Shown here one piece after another: positions 4,266 to 35,530 of a stretch of 64,000 bases of DNA. A program made the translations under genes and the position numbers. The notes beneath the pieces were generated by a model that ran no database searches, was not told the DNA's origin, and was given only the letters and a program-made list of their open reading frames with translations. The stretch comes from Candidatus Zixiibacteriota bacterium (GTDB taxonomy: Bacteria > Zixibacteria > MSB-5A5 > UBA10806): positions 230,358 through 294,357 of the forward strand of contig CP070813.1 in NCBI GenBank assembly GCA_020344055.1. Direction: 5' to 3'. Positions within the stretch are counted from its first letter, which is position 1. Each line of letters starts with the position of its first letter.

Positions 4266-4309
4266 TCCATTAACAAAAGAGACTGAATGTCATTGTCAGC
4301 ATTTCAATA

Positions 4310-18661: not shown

Positions 18662-20752
18662 ATGAAACGATTTTTTGTCCTTCATTTATTAATTTACTTG
18701 CTTACATTTTCTTCAAATGCTCAAAATATTGAATATGTTAATTCTATCCTGTGGGCGAACGCATTTGATGTCAAAACTGTGAATAACTATGCTTATTGCG
18801 TATATACAAATGGCCTTGTGATTTTCGACATATCCAATCCAGCGCAACCCGAATACTTATCAAATCTCTTTCTACAAGGTGAAGGTGGCAAAATTGAAAT
18901 TTCAGGAAATTATGCATACCTTGCTGACGGTACAAATGGCCTTCAAATTATGGATATAGCTAATCCGGCATCCCCGATTTTGACCGGGAATTACAGTAAT
19001 TCAAGCGATGTCATCGACGTATGCGTTGCAGGATCCTATGCATATATTGCCTGCAGCGATTCGGGACTCCAAATCATAGATATATCCGATCCGGCCAATC
19101 CTCTATGTGTTGGGCAATATACTCTCGGGAATGTAATGGGGCTGCATGTTTCCGGAAATTATGCCTTTATTCCCGTACATGGACTTCTTCTTTACATTAT
19201 AAATATATCCAATCCCTTTAATCCAACATATACAGGCACGTTTTTTACACCAAGCAGACCCCGAGATGTATATGTCGTGGGAGATTACGCCTATTTGGCA
19301 ACAGGCACGTCGGAGTACGGTTCCGGCGGTTTGAAGATCATTAACGTATCCAGTCCGACAAATCCCACTCTGGTAGGAAGTTACGATATGATTTACACAT
19401 ACAGTATTTATGTTTCAGGCGATTATGCATATATTAATGATGGTTCCCTTAAAATAATCGACGTTTCAAATCCGTCTATGCCGACGTTAACTGGTTCATA
19501 TTATACGCCATATTCAGTAAACAATGTTTACGAATCCAACGGTCTTGCTTTTGTTGCCGCTGGGACCTTTGAAATCGTCGACGTATCTGATCCGTATAAT
19601 CCAACGCATTACGGAAGCTACGATTCCCTTGGTGGCGCAAACGATGTTTATGTAGTTGACGAATACACTTATGTGGTAGGCCGATTTTTACAAATTTTAA
19701 ATATGTTCAATCTCGGCAATCCTATATTCTTGGGAAATTACATTACGCAAAATTACGTGCGGGTCGTGACTATTGCAGGGTCATACGCTTACATATTCGA
19801 GCAATATGCTGGAATGCTAATTCTAGATATTTCCGATCCTATGAATCCGGTTGTTGTGGGAAGTTATCCCCTATATGCTCACGACATAGAAATATCGGGC
19901 GAATATGCATATATCGGGGGCGGGCCGAATGGGCTCTTGATTATTGATGTTTCCGATCCTACAACTCCCAATTTGGCGGGAAGTTACTCCTCCCACTATA
20001 TTTACGGCGTTTTTGTTTCCGGAGGTTATGTTTACGCCACTTCCGGATTTAATGGACTTTTAATAATAGACGTGTCTGATCCCATAAATCCATTTCTAAC
20101 CGGAAACTATAATACTTCACATGTTGCATTAGATGTATATGTTAAGGACGAATATGCTTACGTGGCCGATAGAAATTCAGGTCTTCAGATTATTGATGTA
20201 TCCGACCCGTTAAACCCGATTTTTGCGGCAAATTACGACACACCCGGACAAGCTTACGATGTTTTTGTATCGGACCATCATGCTTATGTCGCAGATGGAT
20301 ATCAGGGCCTTCAGATAATAAATATCACAAATCCTTCTATACCCCTATTTGTTGGGGGTTACGATACGCCGGGAAAGTCTGAGAATATTCATGTAAGCGG
20401 CAATTATATCTATTTAGCTGATCTATATTCCCTAATAATACTTCATTTTGACTCTCAAACATATATAAAAGAAGTTAATGACTTACCTTATCAATACTCC
20501 TTTAAACAAAATTATCCCAATCCCTTCAACAATTCTACGATCATTGATTATAAACTCAGGCAATCCGAAATGGTGACTATTGACATTTATGATCTTTTGG
20601 GAAGAAAAATCGAGTCACTCGTTAATAAAATTCAACAGCCGGGCGAATATTCCATTACCTGGGAAGCCCGCGAATTATCCTCAGGACTATATTTCTACAC
20701 TATAAAAGCCGGTGAATTTGCCGAAACCAAGAAGATGATGCTTTTAAAATAG
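18662..20752 (+). CDS. LVIVD-repeat beta-propeller protein with T9SS C-terminal sorting domain
   Basis: More than 10 repeats of the G.Y..xxxGLQIIDVSDPxNP LVIVD motif; signal peptide; C-terminus NYPNPFNNST...KKMMLLK. Gene is markedly AT-rich relative to its neighbours. Confidence 0.8.
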   Translation: MKRFFVLHLLIYLLTFSSNAQNIEYVNSILWANAFDVKTVNNYAYCVYTNGLVIFDISNPAQPEYLSNLFLQGEGGKIEISGNYAYLADGTNGLQIMDIANPASPILTGNYSNSSDVIDVCVAGSYAYIACSDSGLQIIDISDPANPLCVGQYTLGNVMGLHVSGNYAFIPVHGLLLYIINISNPFNPTYTGTFFTPSRPRDVYVVGDYAYLATGTSEYGSGGLKIINVSSPTNPTLVGSYDMIYTYSIYVSGDYAYINDGSLKIIDVSNPSMPTLTGSYYTPYSVNNVYESNGLAFVAAGTFEIVDVSDPYNPTHYGSYDSLGGANDVYVVDEYTYVVGRFLQILNMFNLGNPIFLGNYITQNYVRVVTIAGSYAYIFEQYAGMLILDISDPMNPVVVGSYPLYAHDIEISGEYAYIGGGPNGLLIIDVSDPTTPNLAGSYSSHYIYGVFVSGGYVYATSGFNGLLIIDVSDPINPFLTGNYNTSHVALDVYVKDEYAYVADRNSGLQIIDVSDPLNPIFAANYDTPGQAYDVFVSDHHAYVADGYQGLQIINITNPSIPLFVGGYDTPGKSENIHVSGNYIYLADLYSLIILHFDSQTYIKEVNDLPYQYSFKQNYPNPFNNSTIIDYKLRQSEMVTIDIYDLLGRKIESLVNKIQQPGEYSITWEARELSSGLYFYTIKAGEFAETKKMMLLK

Positions 20753-21302: not shown

Positions 21303-23261
21303 CTATTTGCGGAGTTTAACGATCTCCTCCACCGATTCCGGATTGGCCAGGCTGGTGATATCGCCGAAATCCTCGCCCAGAAACGCCTTTTTTATCACCC
21401 GGCGCATGATCTTGCCGTTTCTGGTCTTGGGAAGATCGCTTACGAAAATAATCTCTTTTGGTTTTAACGGCTTCCCCATCTCATCGGCGACCCGTGATCT
21501 CAATTGTTCTTTAAGATCATCAGGATTGATATCGGACTTATTCAGCACGCAGAAACAGACCACCTCGCTCCCCTTGACTTCATGCGGCACCCCGATGGCG
21601 GCCGCCTCGCTTACCGACGGATGTCCCACCAGCACCGATTCCACTTCGGCGGGCCCGACCCTTTTACCAGCAACCTTAATGGTATCGTCGGATCGGCCCA
21701 GGATATACCACAGGCCGTCATCATCGATTGCCGCCCAATCCCCGTGAACCCAGACATTCTCCCAGCGCGACCAATAGGTATCGAGATATCGTTTATCATC
21801 TTTCCAGAATCCTCGGGTCATGCCGATCCAGGGCGAACGGATTATAAGCTCCCCGACCTTATTTCTCACCGGCTTGCAGTTTTCGTCCACCACGTCGGCG
21901 TCGATACCGGGGCATGCGCCTGAAAATGCCGTCGGCTTGAGCGGCAATAGCGGGTTTCCCATAACAATCCCGCCGCTTATCTCGGTCCCGCCGGAATAAT
22001 TTATGATGGGGCGTTTCCTCTCCCCCACGTTATCGAAAAGCCACATCCAGGGATCGGGATTCCAGGGCTCGCTGGTGGAGGCGAAAAACCTCAGCGATGA
22101 TAAATCGTGCTTTTTTACCGGCTCCTCGCCGAACGGAATAAGGGCTCGGATCAACGTTGGCGTTACTCCCAGCGTATTGATCTTATGCTTTTCTACCATG
22201 GACCATAGCCTGTCCGGCCCAGGATAATCGGGAGCTCCGTCATAGAGGAAACATGCCGCTCCCAAAATGGTAGAGCCGAAAATCAGCCAGGGCCCCATCA
22301 TCCAGCCCAGATCGGTTATCCAATAGATGATATCGCCTTCATGAACATCCGTCCCGAAGGCCATATCCTGCGCCGATTTCACCGGGAAGCCGCAATGGGT
22401 ATGCACGGTGCCTTTCGGTTTGCCCGATGTGCCGGAGGTGTAAATTATCATCAGAACATCTTCGGCCGAGGTTTGCTCAAGTTTCGCTTCCGCGGACTGC
22501 CTGGAAACTATATCGTGCCACCAGATATCGCGGCCCGGTTTCATCTGTATTTTGTTTTCTGCTCGGCGTAACACTATTACATGCTTTATTGATTCTACCT
22601 CAGCCACCGCCCGGTCGGCGGGGTCTTTCAACGAAACGACTTTGCCTCTTCGGAAAAAACCGTCGGCGGTGAAAAGTCCTTTTGCCCCTGCATCGTTCAA
22701 TCGCTCGGCTACCGCCTGCGGTCCGTATCCTGAAAAAAGCGGGAGGATAATGGCGCCGATTTTTGCTATGGCGAATAAGGCAACGACAATCTCCGGGGTC
22801 ATGGGCATATAGATACCTATGGCATCGCCCTTTTTGAAACCGAGCTCCCCTAATGCGTTGGCGCAACGATTCACTTCATCATTTAGCTCACTGTAACTAA
22901 GTGTACGGGTTTCCCCCTCCTCGTCTTCCCAGATTACGGCCGGATTATCTCTGGTATCCGGGTTTTCGGCCCACTTTTCGACGCAGTTGTAGACTATATT
23001 CAGATCGCCGTCGACACACCAGCGGGGAAATTGAATTCCGCTGGATAAATCCACTACTTTCGAATAAGGTTTTTGAAATTTTATGTCCAGGAACTTTAAA
23101 ACAGTTTCAGTGAACCATGCTATCTCTGATGTCGATTTTTCCATAAGTTCATCGAAAGAGCCGATTCCATGCAAATCCATAAACTTCTTCAGATTGCTTC
23201 GCTCGATATAATCCTTTGATGGTTTCCAGACGATATTTCCGCCAAACGTGAATTTATCCAT
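21303..23261 (-). CDS. acs: AMP-forming acetyl/acyl-CoA synthetase
   Basis: 652 aa, AMP-binding signature IYTSGTSGKPKG; N-terminal W..P....NL...C..RH-like Acs pattern. Confidence 0.7.
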   Translation of the reverse strand: MDKFTFGGNIVWKPSKDYIERSNLKKFMDLHGIGSFDELMEKSTSEIAWFTETVLKFLDIKFQKPYSKVVDLSSGIQFPRWCVDGDLNIVYNCVEKWAENPDTRDNPAVIWEDEEGETRTLSYSELNDEVNRCANALGELGFKKGDAIGIYMPMTPEIVVALFAIAKIGAIILPLFSGYGPQAVAERLNDAGAKGLFTADGFFRRGKVVSLKDPADRAVAEVESIKHVIVLRRAENKIQMKPGRDIWWHDIVSRQSAEAKLEQTSAEDVLMIIYTSGTSGKPKGTVHTHCGFPVKSAQDMAFGTDVHEGDIIYWITDLGWMMGPWLIFGSTILGAACFLYDGAPDYPGPDRLWSMVEKHKINTLGVTPTLIRALIPFGEEPVKKHDLSSLRFFASTSEPWNPDPWMWLFDNVGERKRPIINYSGGTEISGGIVMGNPLLPLKPTAFSGACPGIDADVVDENCKPVRNKVGELIIRSPWIGMTRGFWKDDKRYLDTYWSRWENVWVHGDWAAIDDDGLWYILGRSDDTIKVAGKRVGPAEVESVLVGHPSVSEAAAIGVPHEVKGSEVVCFCVLNKSDINPDDLKEQLRSRVADEMGKPLKPKEIIFVSDLPKTRNGKIMRRVIKKAFLGEDFGDITSLANPESVEEIVKLRK

Positions 23262-23516
23262 GCAATATCATATCCTGTTCAGCATTTTCAGATTTCAATA
23301 AAAATCGATTAATAATACACGCCCGGATCATCGGCTGTCAAACATAATTCCACAAATTCCTTGCAATGATATTCGGGATACATTACAATTTGAATGTCGA
23401 TTAAATAACGGTCCGAATTTAATCCAGGGGTTTTGTTTTGAATATAAATAAAATTCGCGTATTCTTTCGAGTCACCAAAATTCGGTCGCTTAGACCGCGC
23501 CGATAATCCCCTTGTC

Positions 23517-24299
23517 ATGATCGCGCTTGAAAAAGTATCGAAATCCTTCGATAACGGACTTACCTACGCTGTCAGGGAGATCGATCTGGACGTCCGGCCC
23601 GGTGAGCTTCTGGTTCTTCTGGGGGAATCGGGTTGCGGCAAAACCACAACGCTGAAAACCATAAACAGGCTTATTGAACCGACTTCGGGACAGGTAATTA
23701 TCAATGGAGAAGATACAGCGCGAATCGATCCGGTGAAACTCCGGCGGAGCATCGGGTACGTATTTCAGGAGATAGGGCTGTTTCCGCATATAAATATCGC
23801 CGGGAATATCGGTATGGTGCCGAGGCTTCTCGGTTGGCCCGATGAAAAAATCAGGTACAGGACTATTGAACTTCTGATCCTTGTCGGCCTTAAACCTGAC
23901 GAATTCAAAAACAGGATGCCGGAAGAGCTATCGGGCGGTCAGAAACAGAGAATCGGGGTGGCGAGGGCGCTGGCCGCGGGAGCGAAAATTATGCTTATGG
24001 ACGAGCCGTTCGGCGCCCTGGATCCCATAACCAGAACAAACCTGATCGAGGAGTTCGCGAAAATTCAAAAAGAGCTGGAGTTGACCGTGGTAATGGTCAC
24101 CCACGACGTTCTGGAGGCGTTGATCCTGGCCGATAGAATCGCCGTAATGAGATCGGGCGAAATATTGGCGCTGGGAAAACCGGCGGAACTCGTTTCCAAT
24201 CCTCCTCATCCTTACGTTTCAGAACTGCTGAATACGCCGCGCCGTCAGACGGAAAAAGTGAATCGCATAATAAGAGGCGAAAACAGAAGTGACTTATAG
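23517..24299 (+). CDS. ABC transporter ATP-binding protein, OpuC/ProV (osmoprotectant/quaternary-amine) type
   Basis: Walker A GESGCGKTT, ABC signature LSGGQKQR, Walker B IMLMDEPFGALD; 260 aa without CBS tail. Confidence 0.8.
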   Translation: MIALEKVSKSFDNGLTYAVREIDLDVRPGELLVLLGESGCGKTTTLKTINRLIEPTSGQVIINGEDTARIDPVKLRRSIGYVFQEIGLFPHINIAGNIGMVPRLLGWPDEKIRYRTIELLILVGLKPDEFKNRMPEELSGGQKQRIGVARALAAGAKIMLMDEPFGALDPITRTNLIEEFAKIQKELELTVVMVTHDVLEALILADRIAVMRSGEILALGKPAELVSNPPHPYVSELLNTPRRQTEKVNRIIRGENRSDL

Positions 24300-25812
24300 T
24301 TCTATATCGGAACAGCTCGGTCTTTTGCCCGGTTACCTGGGCAATCATCTGCTTTTGACTCTAATCGCCTTAATAGCGGGAATAGTAATCTGTGTTCCCT
24401 GCGGCGTGATGGTAACACGGATTAAATCTTTGCAATGGCCGACTCTAACAATAGCAGGAATTTTACAGACCATCCCCGGTATCGCCCTTCTGGCCATAAT
24501 GGTTCCTCTTCTGGGACGGATCGGTTTTCTGCCCGCGCTGATCGCTCTAATCGTTTACAGCGTTCTTCCAATTCTTCGTAACACCGTAACCGGTATACTG
24601 GGGGTGGAGAAATCGGTTTTGGAGGCGGCCAGGGGAATCGGTATGACCGATATGCAGTCGCTTTTTAAGGTCGAGCTTCCCCTTTCGTTGCCCGTTATTG
24701 TCGCCGGTATCAGGACCGCGGCGGTATGGGTGGTGGGTACGGCCACGCTGGCCACCCCGGTGGGCGCTACCAGCCTGGGAAATTACGTTTTCAGCGGTCT
24801 GCAGACACAGAATATTTCGGCCATTATAGTGGGATGCGTGGCGGCCGCGCTGCTGGCAATCGTACTGGATCAAACCATCAGGTTAACTGAAAAAACCGTC
24901 TCCCGAAGAAACTTCAAATTGGCCGCTCTTACAGCCACCATATTACTGATCCTATTTGCTATCGGGCTGGCTCCCCTCGCCCGTCATCGGGGTATCGGTG
25001 AAACCGGCAAAACGATCGCCATCGGCTCTAAACCTTTCACGGAGCAATATATTCTGGCCAGGCTCATAGCTGATAATCTTTCCAGAAACGGTTTCAATAC
25101 CGATATCCGTTCGGGAATGGGCTCCATTATCCTGTTCGAGGCGTTAGCCAATAATGAGGTCGATTGTTATGTCGATTACACCGGCACTATCTGGACAAAT
25201 GTCATGAAAAAAGACCATCTACCTCCTCGTAGCCGGATATTAATGGAGATGACTGCATGGTTAAAAAAAGAATGCGAAATACTTTGCCCCGGCGCCCTGG
25301 GATTTGAAAATACTTATGCCCTGGCTGTGCGCAAAGAAACCGCTGACCGGTATAACTTGAATACCATCGATGATCTTTCGCGCTTATCTAATGAATTCTC
25401 CATGGGTAGCGACTATGAATTCTTTTCGCGACCCGAATGGAAGGAACTTAAAGACAAATATAATCTGAATTTCAAGGAACTGATAACTCTCGATCCGACC
25501 CTGATGTATAGCGCCATCGCACAAAAACAGGTTGATGTTATCTCCGCATATTCTACCGACGGACGGATTTTAGACTTCGATCTGATGGTGCTGGACGATA
25601 CGAAGCAGGCTCTTCCTCCTTACGACGCGGTTCTGCTGTTATCTGAACGGGCTTCGAAAAATTCAAGTCTGGTCCGAATTCTGAACGATCTGGTTGGAGG
25701 GATAGACGATGATGCCATGCGCAACGCCAACAAGATTGTCGATGTCGACGGCCAATCTGTCGACAGCGCCGCGATCTACCTCAAAAGCCTGATCGATAGT
25801 TCGGGAGATTAA
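24289..25812 (+). CDS. ABC permease fused to a C-terminal glycine-betaine/quaternary-amine-type substrate-binding domain (OpuCB-OpuCC-like fusion)
   Basis: N-terminal half with 5-6 TM helices and the permease EAA-like region (EAARGIGMTD); C-terminal approx 270 aa soluble domain (AIGSKPFTEQYILARLIADNL...DCYVDYTGT) of OpuAC/ProX-like binding-protein type. Confidence 0.7.
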   Translation: MTYSSISEQLGLLPGYLGNHLLLTLIALIAGIVICVPCGVMVTRIKSLQWPTLTIAGILQTIPGIALLAIMVPLLGRIGFLPALIALIVYSVLPILRNTVTGILGVEKSVLEAARGIGMTDMQSLFKVELPLSLPVIVAGIRTAAVWVVGTATLATPVGATSLGNYVFSGLQTQNISAIIVGCVAAALLAIVLDQTIRLTEKTVSRRNFKLAALTATILLILFAIGLAPLARHRGIGETGKTIAIGSKPFTEQYILARLIADNLSRNGFNTDIRSGMGSIILFEALANNEVDCYVDYTGTIWTNVMKKDHLPPRSRILMEMTAWLKKECEILCPGALGFENTYALAVRKETADRYNLNTIDDLSRLSNEFSMGSDYEFFSRPEWKELKDKYNLNFKELITLDPTLMYSAIAQKQVDVISAYSTDGRILDFDLMVLDDTKQALPPYDAVLLLSERASKNSSLVRILNDLVGGIDDDAMRNANKIVDVDGQSVDSAAIYLKSLIDSSGD

Positions 25813-25906
25813 GTAGGTGTGGTGAAAAACCTCGTCAGGAATATTGTTTTTTACCGGAAGGTTAATTAAGAAAATGATTCTTAAATATTATTCCAGAGGA
25901 TAAGTC

Positions 25907-26917
25907 ATGACACAGTCAATATTAAAACTTGATTCGGTCGATGTATCCGCATTGGAAAGCTATCGCGAGAAATTCGCCCTGGATGTATTAACCGGATTAT
26001 CGGAACCGCGAAAATCCATTCCCTCAATATATCATTACGATGCCGAGGGAAGCAGGTTATTCACTAAAATTACCGAGCTGCCGGAATATTATCCGACCAG
26101 ATGCGAGGTGGAGACACTTAAAAGAAACATAGGTCGATTCGCCGGTTATATGGAATCGGAAACCATAAACTTGATCGAATTCGGCCCCGGCGACGGCAGC
26201 AAGACCAGGATACTGGTGGAGTACTTCCTGAACAAAGGGCTGGCGTTCCAGTACATTCCCATTGATATATCCTTTTCAGCCCTCGACGATCTGCATCGGG
26301 CGTTTAAAAAATCCTATCCCAAACTGGAGCTCAAAGGGCTGGTGGCCGATTATTTCTCCGGAATAAAGTGGCTTAATAACGAGTATAACCGAAAAAACAT
26401 AGTCCTATTCCTCGGTTCGAACATAGGTAATTTCAATCAGGCAAAATCGAAACTGTTTTTGCGTAATTTATGGAATCACCTCAACGACGGCGATATCGTT
26501 ATAATAGGATTTGATCTCAAAAAGGATATCGATCTATTACTGAGAGCCTACAACGATTCCCAGGGTGTAACGGCTGAATTCAATCTCAACCTGTTACGCA
26601 GAATAAATCGGGAATTGGCCGGTGAATTCGACGTATCGAAATTCAGGTTTTTCGCCACCTACGACGTTTTCAGCGGCGCCATGGAGAGTTACCTGGTCAG
26701 TCTCGAAAAACAGGAAGTGATCATTGGCGAAATAGGAAGATCTTTTCATTTCGATCCCTGGGAGCCTATTCATACTGAGTATTCATACAAATACCTGGAA
26801 TCCGATATTCTCAACCTGGCGAAAAATACAGGTTTTATATTAAAAGAAAATCTTTATGACGAGAAAAAGTACTTTGTAAACTCTGTATGGGAAGTGTACA
26901 AGCCGCACGCCAGTTAA
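25907..26917 (+). CDS. egtD: EgtD-like L-histidine N-alpha-methyltransferase
   Basis: YHYDAEGSRLFTKITELPEYYPTRCE closely matches the EgtD hallmark (Y.YD..GS.LFE.I.ELPEYYPTR.E); SAM-binding EFGPGDGSKT; 336 aa. Confidence 0.8.
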   Translation: MTQSILKLDSVDVSALESYREKFALDVLTGLSEPRKSIPSIYHYDAEGSRLFTKITELPEYYPTRCEVETLKRNIGRFAGYMESETINLIEFGPGDGSKTRILVEYFLNKGLAFQYIPIDISFSALDDLHRAFKKSYPKLELKGLVADYFSGIKWLNNEYNRKNIVLFLGSNIGNFNQAKSKLFLRNLWNHLNDGDIVIIGFDLKKDIDLLLRAYNDSQGVTAEFNLNLLRRINRELAGEFDVSKFRFFATYDVFSGAMESYLVSLEKQEVIIGEIGRSFHFDPWEPIHTEYSYKYLESDILNLAKNTGFILKENLYDEKKYFVNSVWEVYKPHAS

Positions 26918-26924
26918 AGTAATA

Positions 26925-29900
26925 ATGAGCATCGCCGAAAAATACGCCGGAAAAGAGCGCAGAGCCCTCTGCGGAATCTGTCCCGCAGGTTGCTGGGTGA
27001 AGGTCAAATACGATAAGGATGGGAAATTATCGGAGGTTCGCGCCGACGATAGCTCCGAGCTGGGAATGATCTGCAAGCTGGGCGAGCATTCCGCCGATAT
27101 CGTATATTCGGAACACCGCCTGAAATATCCCCTGAAAAGAAAAAGCCCTAAGGGCACCTATGAATTCGAACGGATTTCCTGGGATGAGGCCTATGATATA
27201 ATAGTCGAAAAATTGAATGCGCTTAAATCTCAATTCGGCCCCGAATCAACATGTATATACACCGGCAGGGGAAGTTTCGAGCTTGCCTTATGCGATATCT
27301 TTCAGCCGGCCGGTGTAGCCGTTTCCTCGGCCTCCAGCGTACTGTTTCCCTTCGGATCGCCTAACACCATGGGCGTGGGAGCGCTCTGTTACGTGGCCTT
27401 TGCCATGATCGCCCCGCACGTAACAATGGGGGGTATGCTGATCGATATGTACTCCGATATTGAAAACAGCGATCTAATCGTGGCTTGGGGCGCCAACCCC
27501 GCCACCGACTGCCCGCCGCTGGATCTCAAGAGAATCCTGGCAGCCCGCGATCGGGGAGCTGAGGTGGTAGTGATAGACCCCCGCAGAACCAGAACGGCTA
27601 AAATGACCGACGCCGAATGGGTTCCTGTCCGCCCGGGTACTGACGGCGCTCTAGCCCTGGGAATGTGCAACGTGCTTATAGAAGAAGAGCTTTACGACGA
27701 CGATTTCGCCGGGAACTGGACCGTCGGTTTCGATGATTTCGTAAGATACGTTCAGCATTATCGCCCGGAAGTGGTGGAAAAGACTACCGGTGTGCCAGCG
27801 GATACGGTTGTAAAGCTCGCCAGGAGAATCGCCGGTTCCAACGGCGCCTCTCCCGTTATGTACAGCGGCCTCGAATACAGCGACAGCGGGGTGCAGGCTA
27901 TCCGTGCCACCATGGTGCTGTGGGCGTTAGCGGGACAGCTTGACGTCCCCGGCGGGCGTTGCTTCAGTATGAGGCAAAATCAATTTCCTCTTAACAAAAG
28001 CGGGCATATACCGAATCCTGATCTTAAAAAAGCGCTGGGCAGAGATAAATTCCCGGTTTACAGTTCCTATCGCGGCGAATCGCATGCCATAGTCCTTCCC
28101 GATTCGGTGATACATGGAAAACCTTATAAGATCAGATCGCTAATTATGCATGGCGCTTCCATTACTACTTCCTGGCCGGAACCGCACATCTGGAAAGAAA
28201 CTTTAAACGCCCTCGATTTCCTGGTCTGCATCGACCGGCAACTTACCGCCGACGCCACTTACGCCGACATCGTTCTGCCCGCCACCACCATGTACGAGAT
28301 CGAATCGTACATGACCTACGGCCCGATTTTCAGAATAAGAGAAAAGGTGATCGAGCCGGTCGGCGAGGCAAGAAACGATTTCGTCATAATGGCCGAACTT
28401 GCAAAACATCTCGGCTACGGCCACCTATATCCCCAAAATGAAGAAGAATTATTGAATAAGGTATTGGAAAATTCCGGTTTTACTCTGGAACAGGTACGAG
28501 AAGCCGGTGGCGAAGTACAAGCCCCTACCGTTATGAACCAGTATAAAAAGTGGGAGAAGGGACAACTAAGACCGGATGGTAAGCCAGGATTTGATACACC
28601 TACTGGCAAATTCGAAATAGCCTCGACGATACTGGAAGAACATGGTTATGAGCCCTTGCCGGTATACACTGAACCTGCCGAAAGCCCGCAATCGCGGCCC
28701 GATATGACCGGGAAATATCCACTGGTTTTCAACTCCGGTTCCAGGGTAACGACCGACTTCCGCACCCAGCATCACGGGATACCGTCGTTATACAAACAGC
28801 GGCCCGAACCGACCGTTACCATAAATACACAGGATGCTAAAGAAAGAGATATCAAAACCGGCGATCTCGTTACAATCAAGACCGCCCGCGGACAGGTCGA
28901 TTTGAGAGCGTATGTAACGGATGATATTGTAATGGGCGCCATCGACGCCAACATGGGCGGTGGCGGTCCCGTGGGCCCGGAGGCCTGGCAGAAATGTAAC
29001 ATAAACAATCTCACCGATCTTCAGAGATATGACCCCATATCCGGCTTCCCGGTTTACAAGGCATTGTTATGCGACGTGGTAAAGGCCGGGGTTGCATCCA
29101 ATAAAGTGGTTATCGATTCGGGAGAGGATGGCACGGTAAAAGAATCCAAAAGGATGAAAAAAGAAATGCCCTTGCGCCGCGTCTATCTCGATCATAACGC
29201 CACCACCTATCTCGATCCCGAAGTGCTCAAGGTGATGACCGAATTTATGGAAAATGGTTTCGGTAATCCCTCCTCTATTTACCAGGAGGGACGCAAAGCC
29301 AGGGATGCCCTTGAAGCGGCCCGGCGGAGTATGGCCCAGCTTCTCAATTGCACCGCCCGGCGAATCATCTTCACCGGCGGCGGTTCCGAGGCTAACAACC
29401 TCGCCATCAAGGGAGCGGCATTTGCCAATTGGAATGCCAATAGACATATTATAACATCTGCCATCGAGCATCCTGCGGTGCTCAACGCCTGCAAATGGCT
29501 GGAGAAATTCGGCTTCGAGGTAACATATCTTTCGGTAGATAATACCGGTTTGATAAGCCCGGAGGATTTCGAGAAGGCTATCAAACCCAACACCGTCCTC
29601 GCCACCATCATGCTGGCCAATAACGAGACCGGCACCATCCAGCCTATAAAGGAGCTGGCGAAAATCGCCCATGAAAAATCGATCCTGTTTCATACCGACG
29701 CTACCCAGGGTATCGGGAAGATTCCTGTCGATGTAACAGATCTGGATGTCGATATGCTCTCCATGTCGGGGCACAAGCTTTACGGGCCGAAAGGTGTCGG
29801 CGTATTTTATATAAAATCCGGTCTCGAAATCGATCCCCTCATTCACGGCGGCAAGCAGGAACGGGGCCAGCGCGCCGGTACCGAAAACATGGTAAATATA

Positions 29901-30332
29901 GTGGGGATGGGAAAAGCGGCCGAGATAGCGGTGCAGAAGCTTCCGGAGATGGATAAGCTGCGAAAGATGAGGGATAAGCTGGAACAGGGTATAAGAAAAC
30001 TAGTACCCGACGTCAGGCTCAACGGCCACGAAACTGAAAGATTACCAAACACCTTGAATCTCACCCTCCCCGGCATGCGGGGCGAATCGGTTACCCTAGC
30101 TCTCGATCAAAGAGGCATTTCCATATCGTCCGGTTCCGCCTGCAGATCCGGCTCGCCTAAACCGTCTCACGCTCTGCTCGCCATGGGCCTGAGCGAGGAC
30201 GACGCCCACTGCGCTATAAGATTATCACTGGGCCTTAAAAACACCGAGGACGATATCGATTACGCTCTCAGGCAGTTCGGGGCGGTCATCAAAGACGATA
30301 AAAGCTCGGTGCGGTTTATACCGTGCAGGTAG
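26925..30332 (+). CDS. Metallopterin-dependent ergothioneine synthase-like fusion: Mo/W-bisPGD oxidoreductase module (aa 1 to approx 740) + NifS-like cysteine desulfurase module (aa approx 748-1135)
   Basis: Single uninterrupted 1135-codon ORF. N-terminus has the CGICPAGC Fe-S cysteine motif and molybdopterin-oxidoreductase and molybdopterin-dinucleotide-binding-like regions. From nt approx 29166 the sequence is a class-V aminotransferase (YLDHNATTYLDPEV, PLP-lysine SGHKLYGPKG, active-site SSGSACRSG). Starts 7 nt after egtD. Confidence 0.75.
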   Translation: MSIAEKYAGKERRALCGICPAGCWVKVKYDKDGKLSEVRADDSSELGMICKLGEHSADIVYSEHRLKYPLKRKSPKGTYEFERISWDEAYDIIVEKLNALKSQFGPESTCIYTGRGSFELALCDIFQPAGVAVSSASSVLFPFGSPNTMGVGALCYVAFAMIAPHVTMGGMLIDMYSDIENSDLIVAWGANPATDCPPLDLKRILAARDRGAEVVVIDPRRTRTAKMTDAEWVPVRPGTDGALALGMCNVLIEEELYDDDFAGNWTVGFDDFVRYVQHYRPEVVEKTTGVPADTVVKLARRIAGSNGASPVMYSGLEYSDSGVQAIRATMVLWALAGQLDVPGGRCFSMRQNQFPLNKSGHIPNPDLKKALGRDKFPVYSSYRGESHAIVLPDSVIHGKPYKIRSLIMHGASITTSWPEPHIWKETLNALDFLVCIDRQLTADATYADIVLPATTMYEIESYMTYGPIFRIREKVIEPVGEARNDFVIMAELAKHLGYGHLYPQNEEELLNKVLENSGFTLEQVREAGGEVQAPTVMNQYKKWEKGQLRPDGKPGFDTPTGKFEIASTILEEHGYEPLPVYTEPAESPQSRPDMTGKYPLVFNSGSRVTTDFRTQHHGIPSLYKQRPEPTVTINTQDAKERDIKTGDLVTIKTARGQVDLRAYVTDDIVMGAIDANMGGGGPVGPEAWQKCNINNLTDLQRYDPISGFPVYKALLCDVVKAGVASNKVVIDSGEDGTVKESKRMKKEMPLRRVYLDHNATTYLDPEVLKVMTEFMENGFGNPSSIYQEGRKARDALEAARRSMAQLLNCTARRIIFTGGGSEANNLAIKGAAFANWNANRHIITSAIEHPAVLNACKWLEKFGFEVTYLSVDNTGLISPEDFEKAIKPNTVLATIMLANNETGTIQPIKELAKIAHEKSILFHTDATQGIGKIPVDVTDLDVDMLSMSGHKLYGPKGVGVFYIKSGLEIDPLIHGGKQERGQRAGTENMVNIVGMGKAAEIAVQKLPEMDKLRKMRDKLEQGIRKLVPDVRLNGHETERLPNTLNLTLPGMRGESVTLALDQRGISISSGSACRSGSPKPSHALLAMGLSEDDAHCAIRLSLGLKNTEDDIDYALRQFGAVIKDDKSSVRFIPCR

Positions 30333-30414
30333 AAATTTAAATATTCTTTGACATCTTATTAAATCAACATTTATTCATATCGTAAGAAGCTTAATCATTG
30401 ATAAGGAGGGAATT

Positions 30415-31524
30415 ATGGTTAAATTCCTATTATCCATCTCCTTGATTCTAATATCAGCGAGTTTATATATTAGTTATGCGCAGGATGATCCAAGCAGTTT
30501 GTTTCCAATAGAAGTCGATGGAAAGTATGGATTCATTGATGATAAAGGAAATATAATTGTCGAGCCGCAATATGATCGAACATTTGAAATTGATGTGAGA
30601 GTATCTTTTATTTTATTTTTTACATACAAAGGATCTAACGCTCCATATCTCATTAATAAAGACGGGAAATGGGGTTATATCGATATCAATGGAGATATAT
30701 TAATTGAGCCTAAATATGATTGGGCCGGCTCATTTGATGGGGATTTGGCACCTGTTAGAATTGGGGATCAATATTGCTATATCGATAATTCGGGAAACTG
30801 TATTCTTAAGGGAGACTGGGTGGGTGTTGGAGGATTTTATGAAGGGCTTGGAAACATCGAAGTAGTTGATAGCAGTACGGGTAATGATAGTCTCTGGCGC
30901 TGTATTAATAAGGACGGTCAAATGATAATTGAGCCACAATTTAAGGGGGCTACCCCATTTTTTGACGGAAGAGCGGCATTTTGGGAGAAAAATGATCTGG
31001 GCCAAATTAAATGGGGATACATCAACAAAAACGGTGAAGTAGTGATAAATCCTATTTATGACTATGAAAAGAATTTCTCAGAAAATGTCGCTAATGTCCT
31101 TGTCGGTGCGGAAATAAAAGGTGTTTTGGAGTTTGAGGGCGGTAAATGGGGATATATCGACACTTCAGGTAATTTTATAATCAATCCACAATTTGACGAT
31201 GCTGGGCCCTTTTCCGAAAATTTAGCTGCGGTTGAAATAGACGGAAAATGGGGATTCATTAATAAAAGCGGAAAATTCGTTATAGAGCCGAAATATAATT
31301 GGGCTTCGAGATTTTTCGAAGGACTGGCGTTAGTCGATTCTGAAGGGAAATACGGATACATTGATAAAGACGGTGATTATATTATAAAACCAAAATTTAT
31401 AGATGCGGGCAATTTTTATAACGGATTGGCCAGAGTTAATTTCGGAGATAAATGGGGTTACATAAATAAAAAGGGCGAAAATATATTTAAAGATGATTAC
31501 AAAAAACCATTTTTCGCTCGATAA
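30415..31524 (+). CDS. WG-repeat (KWGYI-type) secreted protein
   Basis: Signal peptide plus about 10 repeats of DGKWGYIDxxGxxxIxPxYD; strongly AT-rich gene. Confidence 0.7.
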   Translation: MVKFLLSISLILISASLYISYAQDDPSSLFPIEVDGKYGFIDDKGNIIVEPQYDRTFEIDVRVSFILFFTYKGSNAPYLINKDGKWGYIDINGDILIEPKYDWAGSFDGDLAPVRIGDQYCYIDNSGNCILKGDWVGVGGFYEGLGNIEVVDSSTGNDSLWRCINKDGQMIIEPQFKGATPFFDGRAAFWEKNDLGQIKWGYINKNGEVVINPIYDYEKNFSENVANVLVGAEIKGVLEFEGGKWGYIDTSGNFIINPQFDDAGPFSENLAAVEIDGKWGFINKSGKFVIEPKYNWASRFFEGLALVDSEGKYGYIDKDGDYIIKPKFIDAGNFYNGLARVNFGDKWGYINKKGENIFKDDYKKPFFAR

Positions 31525-31695
31525 TCCGAAATATTAGTTAAGATATGATAGAACTATTCTATTTATATTTTTAAACTTTCAATATTAACCGAATAAATCG
31601 CCCCAAAAACCGATTGCCAAGCCCTTCATATTTCCTTAGATTGCAACATTTATAATGAAAATAATGGTGAACTTTTGATACGGGAGATTTGAGCA

Positions 31696-32898
31696 ATGTA
31701 CGGGAAGATCAAAGAAGACCTCCAGAGAGAACTCCAGGCCACGCGCGACGCCGGCCTTTATAAAGAGGAACGGGTAATCATGACCCCGCAGGGAGCCGAG
31801 ATAAAGGTCAAGACCGGGCAGACGGTCCTTAACTTCTGCGCTAACAACTACTTAGGGCTATCATCGCACCCCAGACTGATCGAAGCCGCCCACAAAACGC
31901 TGGACGAGTGGGGTTACGGGCTGTCGTCGGTGCGGTTTATATGCGGTACCCAGGATATTCACAAACAGCTCGAGGCCAAGGTCTCGGAGTTTCTGGGCAC
32001 CGACGATACCATCCTCTACGCCGCCTGTTTCGATGCCAACGGCGGGGTATTCGAACCGTTTTTCGACGCTGAATGCGCCATCATCTCTGATGCCCTCAAC
32101 CACGCTTCCATCATCGACGGGGTCAGGCTATGTAAAGCCCAGCGGTTCCGTTACGCCAACAACGATATGAACGAGCTCGAGGATTGCCTGAAAAAAGCCA
32201 AGGATCTCAAGTACCGTATCGTCTGCACCGATGGGGTCTTCTCCATGGACGGCAACATCGCCAACCTGAAAGGTATTTGCGACCTGGCCGAAAAATATGA
32301 CGCCATGGTCCTGGTGGACGACTCCCATGCTACCGGTTTCATGGGCAAGACCGGCCGCGGCACCCACGAATACAACGGCGTCATGGGGCGGGTCGATATC
32401 ATAACTACCACCTTCGGTAAGGCGCTCGGCGGCGCGTCAGGAGGATGCACATCCGGTCATAAGGAGATAATCGAGTGGCTTCGTCAGAAATCGCGGCCGT
32501 ACCTGTTCAGCAATACTCTCGCTCCTTCGGTTACCGGCGCCACATTGGAGATGTTCAACATCCTGATGGCCACCACCGAGCTTCGCGACAAGCTGGAAAG
32601 CAACCAGCGCTATTTCCGCAAGGCCATGACCGAAGCCGACTTCGATATCAAGCCCGGCGATCATCCCATCGTTCCCATCATGTTCGGCAAGTTCGAAAAC
32701 GACGCCAAGCTGGCGCAGGATTTCGCCAAAGACATGCTGGCCGAGGGGATTTACGTTATCGGATTCTCCTACCCCGTGGTCCCTAAGGGCCAGGCCCGTA
32801 TCCGTGTGCAGCTCTCCGCCGCCCACAATAAAGAGCACATCGACAAGGCCATCGAGGCGTTCATCAAGATCGGCAAAAAGCATAAGGTGATAGAGTAA
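31696..32898 (+). CDS. kbl: Glycine C-acetyltransferase (2-amino-3-ketobutyrate CoA ligase)
   Basis: Near-colinear match to E. coli Kbl ([15 protein letters not shown]...[16 protein letters not shown]...[31 protein letters not shown]); 400 aa. Confidence 0.9.
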
Positions 32899-33099: not shown

Positions 33100-34182
33100 A
33101 TGAGCGTATTTTCCTCATGCAGGTTACTTATAATATCAAGCTTTACTATTTTGGCATCAATTTTACTATTCCCTTCAACGGGTGAATGCCAGGTAATTTC
33201 CGGTCATTCGCGATTTTTACTGGTGGCCCCCGACGCTCGCGGCAAAAGCCTGGCCGACGGCGGTAGCGTATTCTCAAAGAGCGCGGCCTCGGTATATTAC
33301 AACCCGGCGCTCCTTGTAACCGGCTATCAGTTTTCGGCGGAGGTAAATTACTGTAAGCATTTGCCGCTTCTTTCAGATGTTTCAATTAGTAATTATTTCA
33401 TTTCAAAAAGCCTTAATGACTGGGGCTATTTTGGTATAGGATATTCAAGGCATGATTATGGAGGTGGAGAACGACTGGACGAATATTATCGAACGATTAA
33501 ACCTTACGCATATTCCCTGGGTATCTGGTATGCGATTTCATTCGATCCTTATAATTCGTGTGGAATAGGCGTCAAGTTTATAAAGATCCATGCGGGGCGA
33601 TACAGAATAGATTCTTCGACGCTCGAGGCCTCGTCAATGGCAATTGATTTCGGGATGCTATCAAGAAATCACCTCCCGCAGGCGACCTGGCAAAATGACG
33701 AGATATTTTACCCCCATATTAACAGGCTTTTTAAGGTAGAGAGGGATAAGGGATTTTCCTTCGGGATTTCGTTCTCAAATCTTGGGAGGGATCTTGAATA
33801 TGAACATTATCCTTATTCCGAATCCATTCCGAAACGGCTTCGCGTCGCCGCCGGATACCAGGCGGTGGATTCGGAGCCGGTGGGATTGCGTTTGACGGTT
33901 GACGCCACCAGAGTGCTGATCGATATGGATGATTCGTTCAGAGAAGAATGGAGTGAGGTTGCCTGGTCATACGGATTGGAATCGACTTTCTATTATATCG
34001 TTCATTTCCGCTTCGGCAGGTTATTGGATCGGGGCGATCACCAGCGATACAATACCATCGGATTCGGTGTCGGACCGGAGTGGCTGAGCTTGGATTATTC
34101 GTATGTGTTAGACAGCGATGATCGATGGAATCGAAGCGGCGAAGAATATTCGTTTTCCCTTAGATGTAATATTTCACCATAA
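33100..34182 (+). CDS. Signal-peptide protein, paralog 1 of a tandem triplicated family (predicted outer-membrane beta-barrel-like; possibly PorV/PorQ-type T9SS-associated, unverified)
   Basis: 360 aa; shares with paralogs 2 and 3 the blocks PDARGKSL..GGSVFS, YYNPALLVT, LGIWAA.SFDP.NS.G.GIK, FDFG.LSRNHLP, ERD.GFSFG.S, AGYQA.DSEPVGLRL.VDAT, WSYGLE.TFYY, RFNT.GFG.GPEW.SLDYS, EEYS.S.RCNISP. Confidence 0.5.
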   Translation: MSVFSSCRLLIISSFTILASILLFPSTGECQVISGHSRFLLVAPDARGKSLADGGSVFSKSAASVYYNPALLVTGYQFSAEVNYCKHLPLLSDVSISNYFISKSLNDWGYFGIGYSRHDYGGGERLDEYYRTIKPYAYSLGIWYAISFDPYNSCGIGVKFIKIHAGRYRIDSSTLEASSMAIDFGMLSRNHLPQATWQNDEIFYPHINRLFKVERDKGFSFGISFSNLGRDLEYEHYPYSESIPKRLRVAAGYQAVDSEPVGLRLTVDATRVLIDMDDSFREEWSEVAWSYGLESTFYYIVHFRFGRLLDRGDHQRYNTIGFGVGPEWLSLDYSYVLDSDDRWNRSGEEYSFSLRCNISP

Positions 34183-34257
34183 GTCATGTAGCTCGGTAGC
34201 TTGCTACCGCCATCGGTATGGTTCCCAAGCGGCGCTTGGGAACCAGGAATATATAAT

Positions 34258-34372: not shown

Positions 34373-34388
34373 AGCAAAGGAGAATCAG

Positions 34389-35498: not shown

Positions 35499-35530
35499 GT
35501 CGGCCCCGCGGAACGCGGGGCTGCCGACAC

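What the first reader, a model, noticed from the sequence alone, without database searches (positions are those of the whole stretch)
23517..30332. Operon linking an OpuC-type ABC importer to ergothioneine biosynthesis by the metallopterin-dependent route (EgtD + MES)
Four co-oriented genes with tiny gaps: ABC ATPase (23517..24299), permease fused to a quaternary-amine-type binding domain (24289..25812, 11-nt overlap), an EgtD-like histidine trimethylase (25907..26917) and, 7 nt later, the 1135-aa Mo/W-pterin-desulfurase fusion. Established knowledge: EgtD makes hercynine; a metallopterin-dependent ergothioneine synthase (MES) with exactly this two-module architecture was characterised from Caldithrix abyssi and inserts sulfur from cysteine into hercynine; ergothioneine importers EgtUV are OpuC/ProU-type ABC systems with a fused permease-binding domain. 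A biosynthetic EgtD-MES pair co-transcribed with an EgtUV-like transporter is, to my knowledge, not a described arrangement. It could mean import of hercynine or histidine-betaine precursors, salvage of ergothioneine, or export.
Basis: partly seen in the sequence, partly recalled or inferred. Interest (0 to 1): 0.8.

Follow-up and report, generated by a model that had tools for sequence, protein, structure and literature searches.

The report
Ergothioneine operon with coupled betaine importer
A Zixibacteria genome joins the oxygen-independent two-enzyme pathway for the antioxidant ergothioneine to a betaine-type ABC uptake system in one operon, and the same pairing recurs in many uncultured bacteria, which suggests an undescribed way of both making and taking up this compound.

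Summary
Four co-oriented genes sit at exactly the stated coordinates: an ABC ATPase, a permease fused to an OpuAC-type binding domain, EgtD, and a 1135-aa MES.

MES is 70% identical to the characterised Caldithrix abyssi enzyme and keeps every residue shown there to matter. EgtD passes its equivalog cut-off and keeps the histidine-site residues.

The transporter has the EgtUV architecture but is not an EgtU. Its binding domain is closest to Archaeoglobus ProX (40% identity, against 32% to EgtU), and it has Phe where SpEgtU has its invariant Gly244.

The new result is comparative:
- 12 of 88 MES loci carry an OpuAC-type ABC importer directly beside EgtD/MES, in at least four gene orders and from two transporter lineages.
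- There were none in an equal length of more distant flank.
- Relatives of the window's transporter (58-61% identity) sit beside EgtB-EgtD, the aerobic route.
- The C. abyssi reference locus has no transporter.
- No paper I could search describes the linkage.

The most likely reading is de novo ergothioneine synthesis coupled to uptake of ergothioneine and/or hercynine. A generic glycine-betaine importer remains a serious rival. I class it as a new variant of a known kind, interest about 0.6.

The parts
23262..23516 (.). 255-nt intergenic region between the divergent acetyl-CoA synthetase gene (21303-23261, minus strand) and the operon. It holds a block conserved in the two closest relatives (23424-23459) and a promoter-like site (23361-23389).
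   Evidence: Alignment with L001 and L002; coordinates; promoter scan (consensus match only, with 22 sites found against 13.7 +/- 3.8 expected). No Rfam family matched.
23517..24299 (+). ABC ATPase, 260 aa, consisting of the nucleotide-binding domain only. Walker A is GESGCGKT at aa 36, the signature LSGGQ at aa 138 and Walker B LMDEP at aa 160. There is no C-terminal CBS region.
   Evidence: Pfam ABC_tran 3.5e-34. TIGR01186 proV scores 291 bits, below its 326.6 cut-off, and covers profile positions 3-246 of 363. Motifs. Compare the 385-aa OpuCA-like ATPase in L009.
24289..24990 (+). Permease (transmembrane) half of the fusion protein, aa 1-234, with about six hydrophobic segments. The GTG start overlaps the ATPase stop codon by 11 nt.
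   Evidence: BPD_transp_1 aa 36-194; hydropathy; overlap. L001 shows the same overlap, from an ATG start at 7363.
24991..25812 (+). Extracytoplasmic substrate-binding domain, aa 235-507, OpuAC family (cluster F-III type as defined in the EgtU paper). It has an aromatic cage (Y297, Y343, Y421, Y445, with N341 at the base) and a carboxylate clamp (K248, T300, R381). F250 occupies the position of SpEgtU Gly244.
   Evidence: OpuAC 1.8e-48. PDB matches: AfProX 3e-57, HpEgtU 1.5e-37, BilEB 9e-37. Residue table. AF2 model pLDDT 94.6. Foldseek TM-scores: 0.91 to AfProX, 0.90 to HpEgtU, 0.89 to BilEB.
25813..25906 (+). 94-nt spacer between the transporter genes and egtD. It is 83% conserved in L001 and L002, has an AGGA ribosome-binding site before egtD, and has no predicted plus-strand terminator.
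   Evidence: Alignment; terminator scan; sequence. An internal promoter cannot be excluded.
25907..26917 (+). EgtD, the SAM-dependent L-histidine N-alpha-trimethyltransferase that makes hercynine.
   Evidence: TIGR03438 299.3 bits against a cut-off of 290.9; Methyltransf_33 1.1e-93. Mtb EgtD Y39/F47/Y56/N166/Y206/T213/E282/S284 correspond to Y44/F52/Y61/N175/Y215/T222/E291/S293.
26925..29084 (+). MES N-terminal metallopterin (bis-MGD type) module, aa 1-720. It has the Fe4S4 cysteines C16/C19/C23/C50 and the metal-ligand cysteine C155.
   Evidence: Molybdopterin and Molydop_binding domains. The closest solved N-terminal relative is acetylene hydratase 2e7z. Residues, invariant in alignment A1. 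Equivalents of CaMES C14/17/21/48/153 (PMC9516567).
29157..30332 (+). MES C-terminal PLP-dependent cysteine desulfurase module, aa 745-1135. It has the PLP lysine K951 and the persulfide-relay cysteines C1073, C1096 and C1134.
   Evidence: Aminotran_5 7.4e-86; NifS-like 510 bits. PDB cysteine desulfurases score about 1e-110. Residues. Equivalents of CaMES K952/C1074/C1097/C1135, of which K952, C1074 and C1135 were shown to be essential (PMC9516567).

Best explanation
This is a four-gene operon of an uncultured Zixibacteria genome. It combines oxygen-independent ergothioneine synthesis with an ABC importer for a carboxylate-bearing quaternary amine.

Synthesis. EgtD trimethylates histidine to hercynine, using three SAM. 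[quoted passage not shown] That centre transfers the sulfur to C2 of hercynine, giving ergothioneine. The reaction mechanism is taken from the C. abyssi study. What is shown here is orthology and retention of the residues.

Transport. The ATPase and the permease-binding-domain fusion form a binding-domain-dependent importer. I infer that its physiological substrate is a histidine betaine. Ergothioneine itself is most likely, as recapture or scavenging of a compound that costs three SAM and one cysteine. Hercynine is a possible second substrate that would feed MES directly. The substrate is inferred from repeated gene linkage and was not shown.
For: MES and EgtD identity:
- MES is 70% identical to C. 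abyssi MES over 1135 aa and 91% to a Zixibacteria MAG.
- All nine functional residues are conserved (PMC9516567).
- EgtD passes its equivalog cut-off and keeps the histidine-site residues.

Operon structure:
- The ATPase and permease overlap by 11 nt, and the gaps are 94 nt and 7 nt.
- No plus-strand terminator is predicted between the genes.
- The gene order is kept in L001, L002 and L090.

The ligand is a betaine:
- The aromatic cage and the K248/T300/R381 carboxylate clamp are invariant in 117 clade members.

Coupling to the ergothioneine pathway:
- 12 of 88 MES loci have an OpuAC ABC system beside EgtD/MES, in at least four gene orders. None lies in 360 kb of farther flank.
- Two non-orthologous transporter lineages are involved. 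One has the permease before the SBD, as here. The other has the SBD before the permease (L005 type), and its best PDB matches are the EgtU proteins, at 2e-44 to 3e-41.
- Four of eight sampled relatives of the window's transporter (58-70% identity) sit beside EgtD. Three of those four are paired with EgtB, the O2-dependent route, confirmed by TIGR03440 at 541-565 bits.
- The metabolites common to the MES and EgtB routes are hercynine and ergothioneine.

Other support:
- The ATPase lacks the C-terminal CBS region. In osmoregulated OpuA/OpuC systems that region mediates ionic-strength gating (established knowledge).
Against: - The binding domain's nearest solved relative is AfProX, a glycine-betaine and proline-betaine binder: 40% identity against 32% to the EgtU proteins.
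- It matches AfProX at 15 of 17 tabulated pocket positions, including F250.
- In SpEgtU a G244F change weakens ergothioneine binding about 100-fold.
- No alignment column separates egt-linked from unlinked clade members.
- Half of the sampled relatives are not next to egt genes.
- Only about 14% of MES loci show the linkage, and the C. abyssi reference locus has none.
- The fold does not discriminate: TM-score 0.89-0.91 to both AfProX and apo EgtU.
- Co-transcription and the identity of the substrate are both untested.
Confidence: 0.55

Rival explanations
1. The transporter is an ordinary compatible-solute importer (glycine betaine or proline betaine, like AfProX). It is placed in one stress-response transcription unit with ergothioneine synthesis because both supply protective betaines, and it has no metabolic connection to the pathway.
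For: - The best solved relative is AfProX (3e-57, 40% identity).
- Pocket residues match AfProX except D109->N341 and T42->S279.
- Phe is at the Gly244 position, and G244F costs SpEgtU about 100-fold in ergothioneine affinity.
- Stand-alone copies of both transporter lineages exist.
- Ergothioneine has been proposed, though not shown, to act as a compatible solute (PMC12689799).
Against: - The linkage to egtD recurs with two unrelated transporter lineages and two unrelated sulfur-insertion enzymes. A pathway-related substrate explains that more simply.
- The ATPase lacks the CBS region.
- HpEgtU binds ergothioneine while sharing the window's Tyr/Phe state and its Pro and Gly at the two residues nearest the sulfur. 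The SpEgtU signature is therefore not a universal requirement.
- G244F still leaves roughly micromolar binding. This is my inference from the reported Ka of about 2e7 per M and the 100-fold loss.
Confidence: 0.3
2. The importer carries some other quaternary amine unrelated to histidine betaines, for example another trimethylated amino acid, carnitine, or a choline ester that serves as a nutrient.
For: OpuAC-family domains bind many quaternary amines. Structurally close matches include choline, carnitine, arsenobetaine and engineered nicotine and acetylcholine binders.
Against: The carboxylate clamp K248/T300/R381 is invariant, which argues against choline-type ligands that lack a carboxylate. 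Nothing in the neighbourhoods points to catabolism of such compounds.
Confidence: 0.08
3. The adjacency has no functional meaning: two independent units happen to lie side by side.
For: The 94-nt spacer before egtD is conserved and could hold its own promoter. Most MES loci lack a transporter.
Against: Twelve binding-protein genes lie within 3.5 kb of the core and none farther out. There are at least four gene orders and two transporter lineages. The same linkage is seen with EgtB-EgtD in other lineages, one of them an Acidobacteriota MAG. No terminator is predicted in the spacer.
Confidence: 0.04
4. The ABC system exports newly made ergothioneine.
For: Producer organisms do release ergothioneine (mentioned in PMC9516567).
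Against: Binding-domain-dependent ABC systems with this permease fold are importers (established knowledge). The fused OpuAC domain with an intact ligand cage is an uptake receptor.
Confidence: 0.02

Closest known systems
EgtD-MES ergothioneine pathway of Caldithrix abyssi (Beliaeva and Seebeck 2022, PMC9516567)
   Same: The two-enzyme route is the same, and MES has the same two-module architecture and nearly the same length (1135 against 1136 aa). It is 70% identical, and every residue tested or highlighted there is kept: the four Fe-S cysteines, the metal-ligand cysteine, the PLP lysine and the three C-terminal cysteines.
   Different: The C. abyssi-type locus reads EgtD - FMN reductase - MES - Rieske protein and has no transporter (L007 is similar). 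Here egtD and MES are 7 nt apart and are preceded by an ABC importer. The organism is a Zixibacteria MAG.
EgtUV (EgtU) ergothioneine ABC importer of S. pneumoniae, H. pylori and L. monocytogenes BilE
   Same: A separate ATPase plus a permease with a C-terminal fused OpuAC-type binding domain. The aromatic cage, the Asn at the cage base and the Lys/Thr/Arg carboxylate clamp are conserved. The fold has a TM-score of 0.89-0.90 to apo HpEgtU and BilEB.
   Different: Identity is only 31-33%. Phe250 replaces the Gly244 that is invariant in the SpEgtU group (Ser in Hp). Tyr297/Phe339 replace Phe293/Tyr337. Asp446 replaces Gln444. The loop that touches the thione in SpEgtU is one residue shorter. Known EgtUV systems were described in organisms that cannot make ergothioneine; this one is fused to the biosynthetic genes.
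Archaeoglobus fulgidus ProX (glycine betaine / proline betaine binding protein, PDB 1sw1, 1sw2, 3mam)
   Same: It is the best sequence and fold match: E 3e-57, 40% identity, TM-score 0.91. It has the same four-Tyr cage, Phe at the Gly244 position and Phe at the Tyr337 position.
   Different: AfProX is a free binding protein, whereas here the domain is fused to the permease. D109 is replaced by Asn341 and T42 by Ser279, and there is a one-residue loop deletion. The gene context is ergothioneine biosynthesis.
Precursor-uptake and betaine-synthesis gene clusters (E. coli betT-betIBA; B. subtilis opuB/opuC with gbsAB). Recalled from established knowledge, not tested here.
   Same: The logic is the same: an importer for a betaine or its precursor is placed genetically or regulatorily with the enzymes that make the betaine.
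   Different: The compound, the enzymes and the transporter families differ. In those systems the imported precursor (choline) cannot be made by the cell, whereas here EgtD makes hercynine in the cell.

Membership tests
MES (metallopterin-dependent ergothioneine synthase) | Single polypeptide with an N-terminal bis-MGD-type molybdopterin module and a C-terminal class V (NifS/IscS-like) cysteine desulfurase | tested here: met
   Molybdopterin (aa 65-494), Molydop_binding (aa 602-713) and Aminotran_5 (aa 753-1113). 70% identity to C. abyssi MES over the full length.
MES (metallopterin-dependent ergothioneine synthase) | Four N-terminal cysteines for an Fe4S4 cluster, and the metal-ligand cysteine (CaMES C14, C17, C21, C48, C153) | tested here: met
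   C16, C19, C23, C50 and C155 are present and invariant in alignment A1. The reference numbering was verified on L004.
MES (metallopterin-dependent ergothioneine synthase) | PLP lysine and persulfide-relay cysteines (CaMES K952, C1074, C1135 essential; C1097 conserved) | tested here: met
   K951, C1073, C1134 and C1096. Their roles come from PMC9516567.
MES (metallopterin-dependent ergothioneine synthase) | Encoded together with a histidine-specific EgtD | tested here: met
   egtD ends 7 nt before MES. EgtD is adjacent in 63 of 88 MES loci.
MES (metallopterin-dependent ergothioneine synthase) | Converts hercynine plus cysteine to ergothioneine; Mo or W dependence | not testable with these tools
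   Needs expression and LC-MS.
EgtD (L-histidine N-alpha-methyltransferase) | Scores above the curated equivalog cut-off | tested here: met
   TIGR03438 at 299.3 bits against 290.9. The margin is small. EasF scores 164 bits, below its cut-off.
EgtD (L-histidine N-alpha-methyltransferase) | Histidine-site residues of mycobacterial EgtD (Y39, F47, Y56, N166, Y206, T213, E282, S284) | tested here: met
   All eight are identical: Y44, F52, Y61, N175, Y215, T222, E291, S293. T163->N172 and M252->S261 differ.
EgtU / EgtUV ergothioneine importer | ATPase plus a permease with a C-terminal fused binding domain | tested here: met
   The architecture is described.
EgtU / EgtUV ergothioneine importer | Quaternary-amine cage (F293/Y341/Y419/Y443 with N339) and carboxylate clamp (K242, T296, R379) | tested here: met
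   Y297/Y343/Y421/Y445 with N341, and K248, T300, R381. The first cage residue is Tyr, not Phe.
EgtU / EgtUV ergothioneine importer | Gly at position 244 (invariant in the SpEgtU group) to make room for the water network around the thione | tested here: not met
   Phe250, invariant in 117 clade members. G244F weakens ergothioneine binding about 100-fold in SpEgtU. HpEgtU has Ser here.
EgtU / EgtUV ergothioneine importer | F293/Y337 'F-Y switch' relative to AfProX | tested here: not met
   Y297/F339, which is the AfProX state. HpEgtU, a proven ergothioneine binder, shares it, so the feature is not universal.
EgtU / EgtUV ergothioneine importer | Groups with the EgtU sequence cluster | tested here: not met
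   31-33% identity to Hp, Lm and Sp EgtU against 40% to AfProX. By contrast the L005-type MES-linked transporters do have the EgtU proteins as their best PDB hits.
EgtU / EgtUV ergothioneine importer | High-affinity ergothioneine binding that is selective over hercynine | not testable with these tools
   Needs ITC or uptake assays.
AfProX-type glycine betaine binding proteins | Four-tyrosine cage plus a Lys/Thr/Arg carboxylate clamp | tested here: met
   Y297, Y343, Y421, Y445 and K248, T300, R381.
AfProX-type glycine betaine binding proteins | Binds glycine betaine or proline betaine as the physiological ligand | not testable with these tools
   Identity is only 40%, and the gene context argues for a different physiological ligand.
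Osmoregulated OpuA/OpuC/ProU ABC importers | ATPase with a C-terminal tandem CBS regulatory region | tested here: not met
   The ATPase is 260 aa with only ABC_tran. The proV model is matched at positions 3-246 of 363, below its cut-off. The OpuC-type ATPase in L009 is 385 aa.

The most novel reading that the evidence does not exclude
Two unrecognised clades of binding-domain-fused ABC importers are dedicated histidine-betaine transporters. One is the permease-SBD type seen here, and the other is the SBD-permease L005 type. Both are genetically coupled to ergothioneine biosynthesis, across the anaerobic MES route and the aerobic EgtB route. Both have Phe where ergothioneine-specific EgtU has Gly or Ser, so they may prefer hercynine or accept both compounds. 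That would give a salvage route feeding MES or EgtB directly and sparing three SAM per molecule.
Probability: 0.3. Interest if true: 0.75.

Novelty: new variant of a known kind. Interest (0 to 1): 0.6.

Why it matters
Ergothioneine uptake has so far been described in bacteria that cannot make it, and anaerobic synthesis has been described without any transport component.

A recurrent physical coupling of a betaine importer to EgtD, whichever enzyme inserts the sulfur, would mean that environmental producers also recapture or scavenge ergothioneine or its precursor. That would:
- extend the known sequence space of ergothioneine or hercynine binding proteins beyond the EgtU signature;
- give a concrete, cheap experiment, namely ligand binding by one soluble domain;
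- identify candidates useful for engineering ergothioneine production strains, either to block re-uptake or to feed hercynine.

The survey also shows that MES is widespread (Zixibacteria, anammox bacteria, Nitrospirota, Desulfobacterota) yet is annotated almost everywhere only as a cysteine desulfurase.

Tried and rejected
- **Riboswitch or other RNA element.** An Rfam search of 22800-31800 at E <= 1 found nothing.
- **Promoter and terminator scan.** Counts were not clearly above the shuffled expectation. I used the scan only to note that no plus-strand terminator is predicted between the genes.
- **L009 (Lentibacillus).** It looked like a desulfurase near an EgtUV-like system. It is an ordinary OpuC system with a separate lipoprotein and a CBS-bearing ATPase, 7 kb from a plain cysteine desulfurase. 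Dropped.
- **The 1685-aa 'MES' ORF in L001.** An artefact of a masked run of N.
- **The roughly 1150-aa proteins after the unlinked Zixibacteria transporters.** They are about the size of MES but are not MES. They gave no tblastn match and carry an HxxEH motif typical of M16 peptidases.
- **Alignment columns separating egt-linked from unlinked transporter relatives.** None exist, so linkage cannot be turned into a sequence signature.
- **Fold comparison of a high-confidence AF2 model of the binding domain.** It cannot separate AfProX from EgtU: TM-score 0.89-0.91 to both in their open forms.
- **L069.** MES is followed directly by an ABC ATPase, with no EgtD in 2.5 kb upstream. That would have favoured hercynine import, but the contig ends inside the ATPase.
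- **Export reading.** Rejected on the architecture of the system.

Full report
**Observation**

The ATPase and permease genes overlap by 11 nt. Gaps of 94 nt and 7 nt follow.

Pfam and NCBIfam give the domain content that was described:
- an ABC ATPase;
- a BPD_transp_1 permease fused to an OpuAC binding domain (aa 241-495);
- an EgtD-type methyltransferase (TIGR03438, 299.3 bits against a cut-off of 290.9);
- a 1135-aa protein with Molybdopterin, Molydop_binding and Aminotran_5 domains.

The unit is bounded upstream by a divergent acetyl-CoA synthetase gene. Downstream, after 82 nt, comes a low-GC WG-repeat gene. A protein 100% identical to the permease fusion is recorded from a Candidatus Zixiibacteriota MAG on a 3.83-Mb contig.

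**The biosynthetic half**

The large protein is a MES orthologue.
- It is 91% identical to a Zixibacteria MAG protein and 70% identical over its full length to the Caldithrix abyssi protein.
- The C. abyssi copy I fetched (L004) carries every published residue at the published number, so it is a valid reference.
- The window protein has C16/C19/C23/C50 (the Fe-S cluster), C155 (the metal ligand), K951 (PLP), and C1073, C1096 and C1134 (the persulfide relay). All are invariant in a five-sequence alignment.
- The C. abyssi study showed that the equivalents of C155, K951, C1073 and C1134 are required for ergothioneine production, and that sulfur transfer is intramolecular (PMC9516567).

EgtD aligns to the M. 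tuberculosis structure with all eight histidine-contact residues identical. The reaction mechanism itself is inferred by orthology and was not tested here.

**The transporter half**

The ATPase is a bare nucleotide-binding domain of 260 aa. It matches the proV model only over positions 3-246 of 363 and scores below that model's cut-off. It therefore lacks the C-terminal CBS region found in osmoregulated OpuA/OpuC ATPases. The role of that region is established knowledge, and L009 provides a 385-aa example.

The permease has about six hydrophobic segments followed by the binding domain. This is the EgtU layout.

The binding domain, however, is not an EgtU by sequence.
- Its best solved relative is A. 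fulgidus ProX, at 3e-57 and 40% identity.
- H. pylori EgtU, Listeria BilEB and S. pneumoniae EgtUC score 1e-37 to 1e-34, at 31-33% identity.
- An AlphaFold model (pLDDT 94.6) superposes equally well on open AfProX (TM-score 0.91), apo HpEgtU (0.90) and BilEB (0.89). The fold does not discriminate.

I mapped the ligand-contact positions defined for SpEgtU.
- The window domain keeps the cage (Y297, Y343, Y421, Y445, with N341 at the base) and the carboxylate clamp (K248, T300, R381). The ligand is therefore a betaine with a carboxylate.
- It has Phe250 where the SpEgtU group has an invariant Gly244.
- It has the AfProX state of the F/Y switch.

The weight of this evidence is limited, for three reasons:
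- G244F costs SpEgtU about 100-fold in ergothioneine affinity but does not abolish binding.
- HpEgtU, a proven ergothioneine binder, also has the Tyr/Phe state.
- HpEgtU also shares Pro and Gly at the two residues nearest the sulfur, as does the window.

**Does the linkage recur?**

A genome scan and a metagenome scan with a MES alignment gave 88 MES loci.
- EgtD is adjacent in 63 of them, and an OpuAC-type ABC system is adjacent in 12.
- The gene orders include ATPase-transporter-EgtD-MES, MES-EgtD-ATPase-transporter, EgtD-MES-ATPase-transporter, and one case on the opposite strand.
- All 12 binding-protein genes lie within 3.5 kb of the EgtD-MES core (388 kb sampled). None lies in the 360 kb of farther flank (p about 4e-4).
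- Some loci are close relatives, so that p-value is optimistic. Many contigs end near the pair, so 12 of 88 is a lower bound.

Apart from the window's close relatives L001 and L002, the linked transporters in this scan are of a different lineage. In these the binding domain precedes the permease. L005, the example aligned in full, is about 30% identical to the window's domain, and its best PDB matches are the EgtU proteins, at 2e-44 to 3e-41. A further member of that lineage is linked in L100, while the Nitrosococcus and Brocadiaceae copies stand alone.

**The window's own transporter lineage**

The window's lineage is common at 56-70% identity in Zixibacteria, Bacteroidota and Acidobacteriota. 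I could view eight relatives in context:
- One (70% identity) has the window's order, with EgtD and a truncated MES.
- Three (58-61% identity) sit directly upstream of EgtB and EgtD. Both enzymes score above their equivalog cut-offs.
- Four are not next to egt genes.

The pocket is invariant across 117 clade members, and no column separates linked from unlinked members.

The same transporter lineage is thus tied to EgtD whether sulfur is inserted by the anaerobic MES or by the O2-dependent EgtB. The only pathway-specific metabolites those two routes share are hercynine and ergothioneine. This is the main argument that the substrate belongs to the pathway.

**Prior description**

- The C. abyssi-type locus reads EgtD - FMN reductase - MES - Rieske protein and has no transporter.
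- The MES paper and its supplement do not mention one.
- The EgtUV papers do not discuss linkage to biosynthesis.
- Four further full-text searches found nothing.
- The library covers open-access papers only, so a description in a subscription journal cannot be excluded.

**Mechanism and confidence**

- I am confident (about 0.9) that 25907-30332 encodes ergothioneine synthesis by the EgtD-MES route.
- I am fairly confident (about 0.8) that the transporter is functionally coupled to it.
- I give about 0.55 to the substrate being ergothioneine and/or hercynine.
- The main rival (0.3) is a generic glycine-betaine-type importer that shares a stress-response transcript.
- Between the two histidine betaines, recapture of ergothioneine fits the fact that EgtD is present in every linked locus. 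Phe250, and the fact that MES and EgtB both use hercynine, keep hercynine open as a substrate.

**Verdict**

The enzymes are new members of known families. The coupled importer, from a binding-domain clade outside EgtU, is a new variant of a known kind and is supported by comparative evidence that goes beyond this window.

Noticed in passing
window 2579-8477 (minus strand): A molybdenum-cofactor biosynthesis and maturation cluster lies 15-20 kb upstream of MES. It comprises a MOSC-domain protein (3801-4265), MoaC (4310-4798), MoaA (4795-5775), MoaB/Mog-like (5772-6278), YqeB (6275-7120, TIGR03309 at 290 bits against a cut-off of 220), an XdhC-family chaperone (7090-7884) and a MocA-like cytidylyltransferase (7881-8477). 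hisC (2579-3691) is next to it. YqeB, XdhC and MocA usually accompany xanthine-dehydrogenase-type enzymes, so a link to MES is not established.
   Followed up: partly
L092 11103-12497; L094 4741-6141; L007 3190-4563: An FAD-dependent pyridine-nucleotide disulfide oxidoreductase sits next to egt genes or to the egt-type transporter in three unrelated loci. In L092 its best matches are NF004992 and RclA/MerA-like models, all below their cut-offs. It is a candidate reductase for oxidised ergothioneine.
   Followed up: no
L101 5605-6186 and 10037-10306; L007 8337-8762: In the C. abyssi-type loci an NADPH-dependent FMN reductase (flavodoxin-like) gene lies between egtD and MES. In L101 a small Rieske protein also follows MES. 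These are possible redox partners of MES and are absent from the window's operon.
   Followed up: partly
proteins P0241-P0360: MES homologues at 68-92% identity are named by their sources only as 'cysteine desulfurase NifS/IscS' or 'aminotransferase class V'. They occur in anammox bacteria (Scalindua, Kuenenia, Jettenia, Brocadiaceae), Nitrospirota, Desulfobacteria and Desulfomonile. The family is widely under-annotated.
   Followed up: no
L069 2333-6174: MES is followed 20 nt later by an ABC ATPase gene, and there is no EgtD in the 2.5 kb upstream (a PilZ protein and an unknown 497-aa protein lie there instead). The contig ends inside the ATPase. If that genome lacks EgtD, it would argue for hercynine import.
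   Followed up: partly
window 25907-26917 compared with L092, L095, L097, L005, L007: The window's EgtD is 56-59% identical to the EgtDs of the EgtB-linked loci but only 41-42% identical to the EgtDs of the Calditrichota MES loci. This suggests that the transporter and EgtD may move as a module while the sulfur-insertion enzyme is exchanged. Some transporter-less MES loci also have window-like EgtDs, so the pattern is not clean.
   Followed up: partly
window 25120-25125 (aa G278-S279 of the fusion protein): The window-type binding domains are one residue shorter than AfProX and BilEB, and two shorter than HpEgtU, in the loop that corresponds to SpEgtU T274/T275, which touches the thione and imidazole ring.
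   Followed up: no
window 30415-31524: A gene for a protein with seven WG beta-repeats follows MES after 82 nt on the same strand. The segment drops to 41.5% GC, and no terminator is predicted in between. No NCBIfam family matches. Whether it belongs to the transcript is unknown.
   Followed up: no
window 33100-36799, 18662-20752 and 1132-2484: Three tandem PorV/PorQ-family outer-membrane paralogues lie at 33100-34182, 34389-35498 and 35630-36799. Two proteins have type IX secretion sorting domains, one of them with 11 LVIVD repeats. A flagellin gene lies at 41628-42512.
   Followed up: no
window 14935-15708: A stand-alone 257-aa FGE-sulfatase-domain protein. It gives partial, sub-threshold matches to GldK and to the C-terminal half of EgtB. 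It is probably unrelated to the operon.
   Followed up: no
L005 14398-14880; L095 5647-6180: DinB-superfamily genes flank two transporter-linked egt clusters. From general knowledge, DinB-fold proteins include thiol-dependent transferases, so these could be enzymes that use ergothioneine.
   Followed up: no
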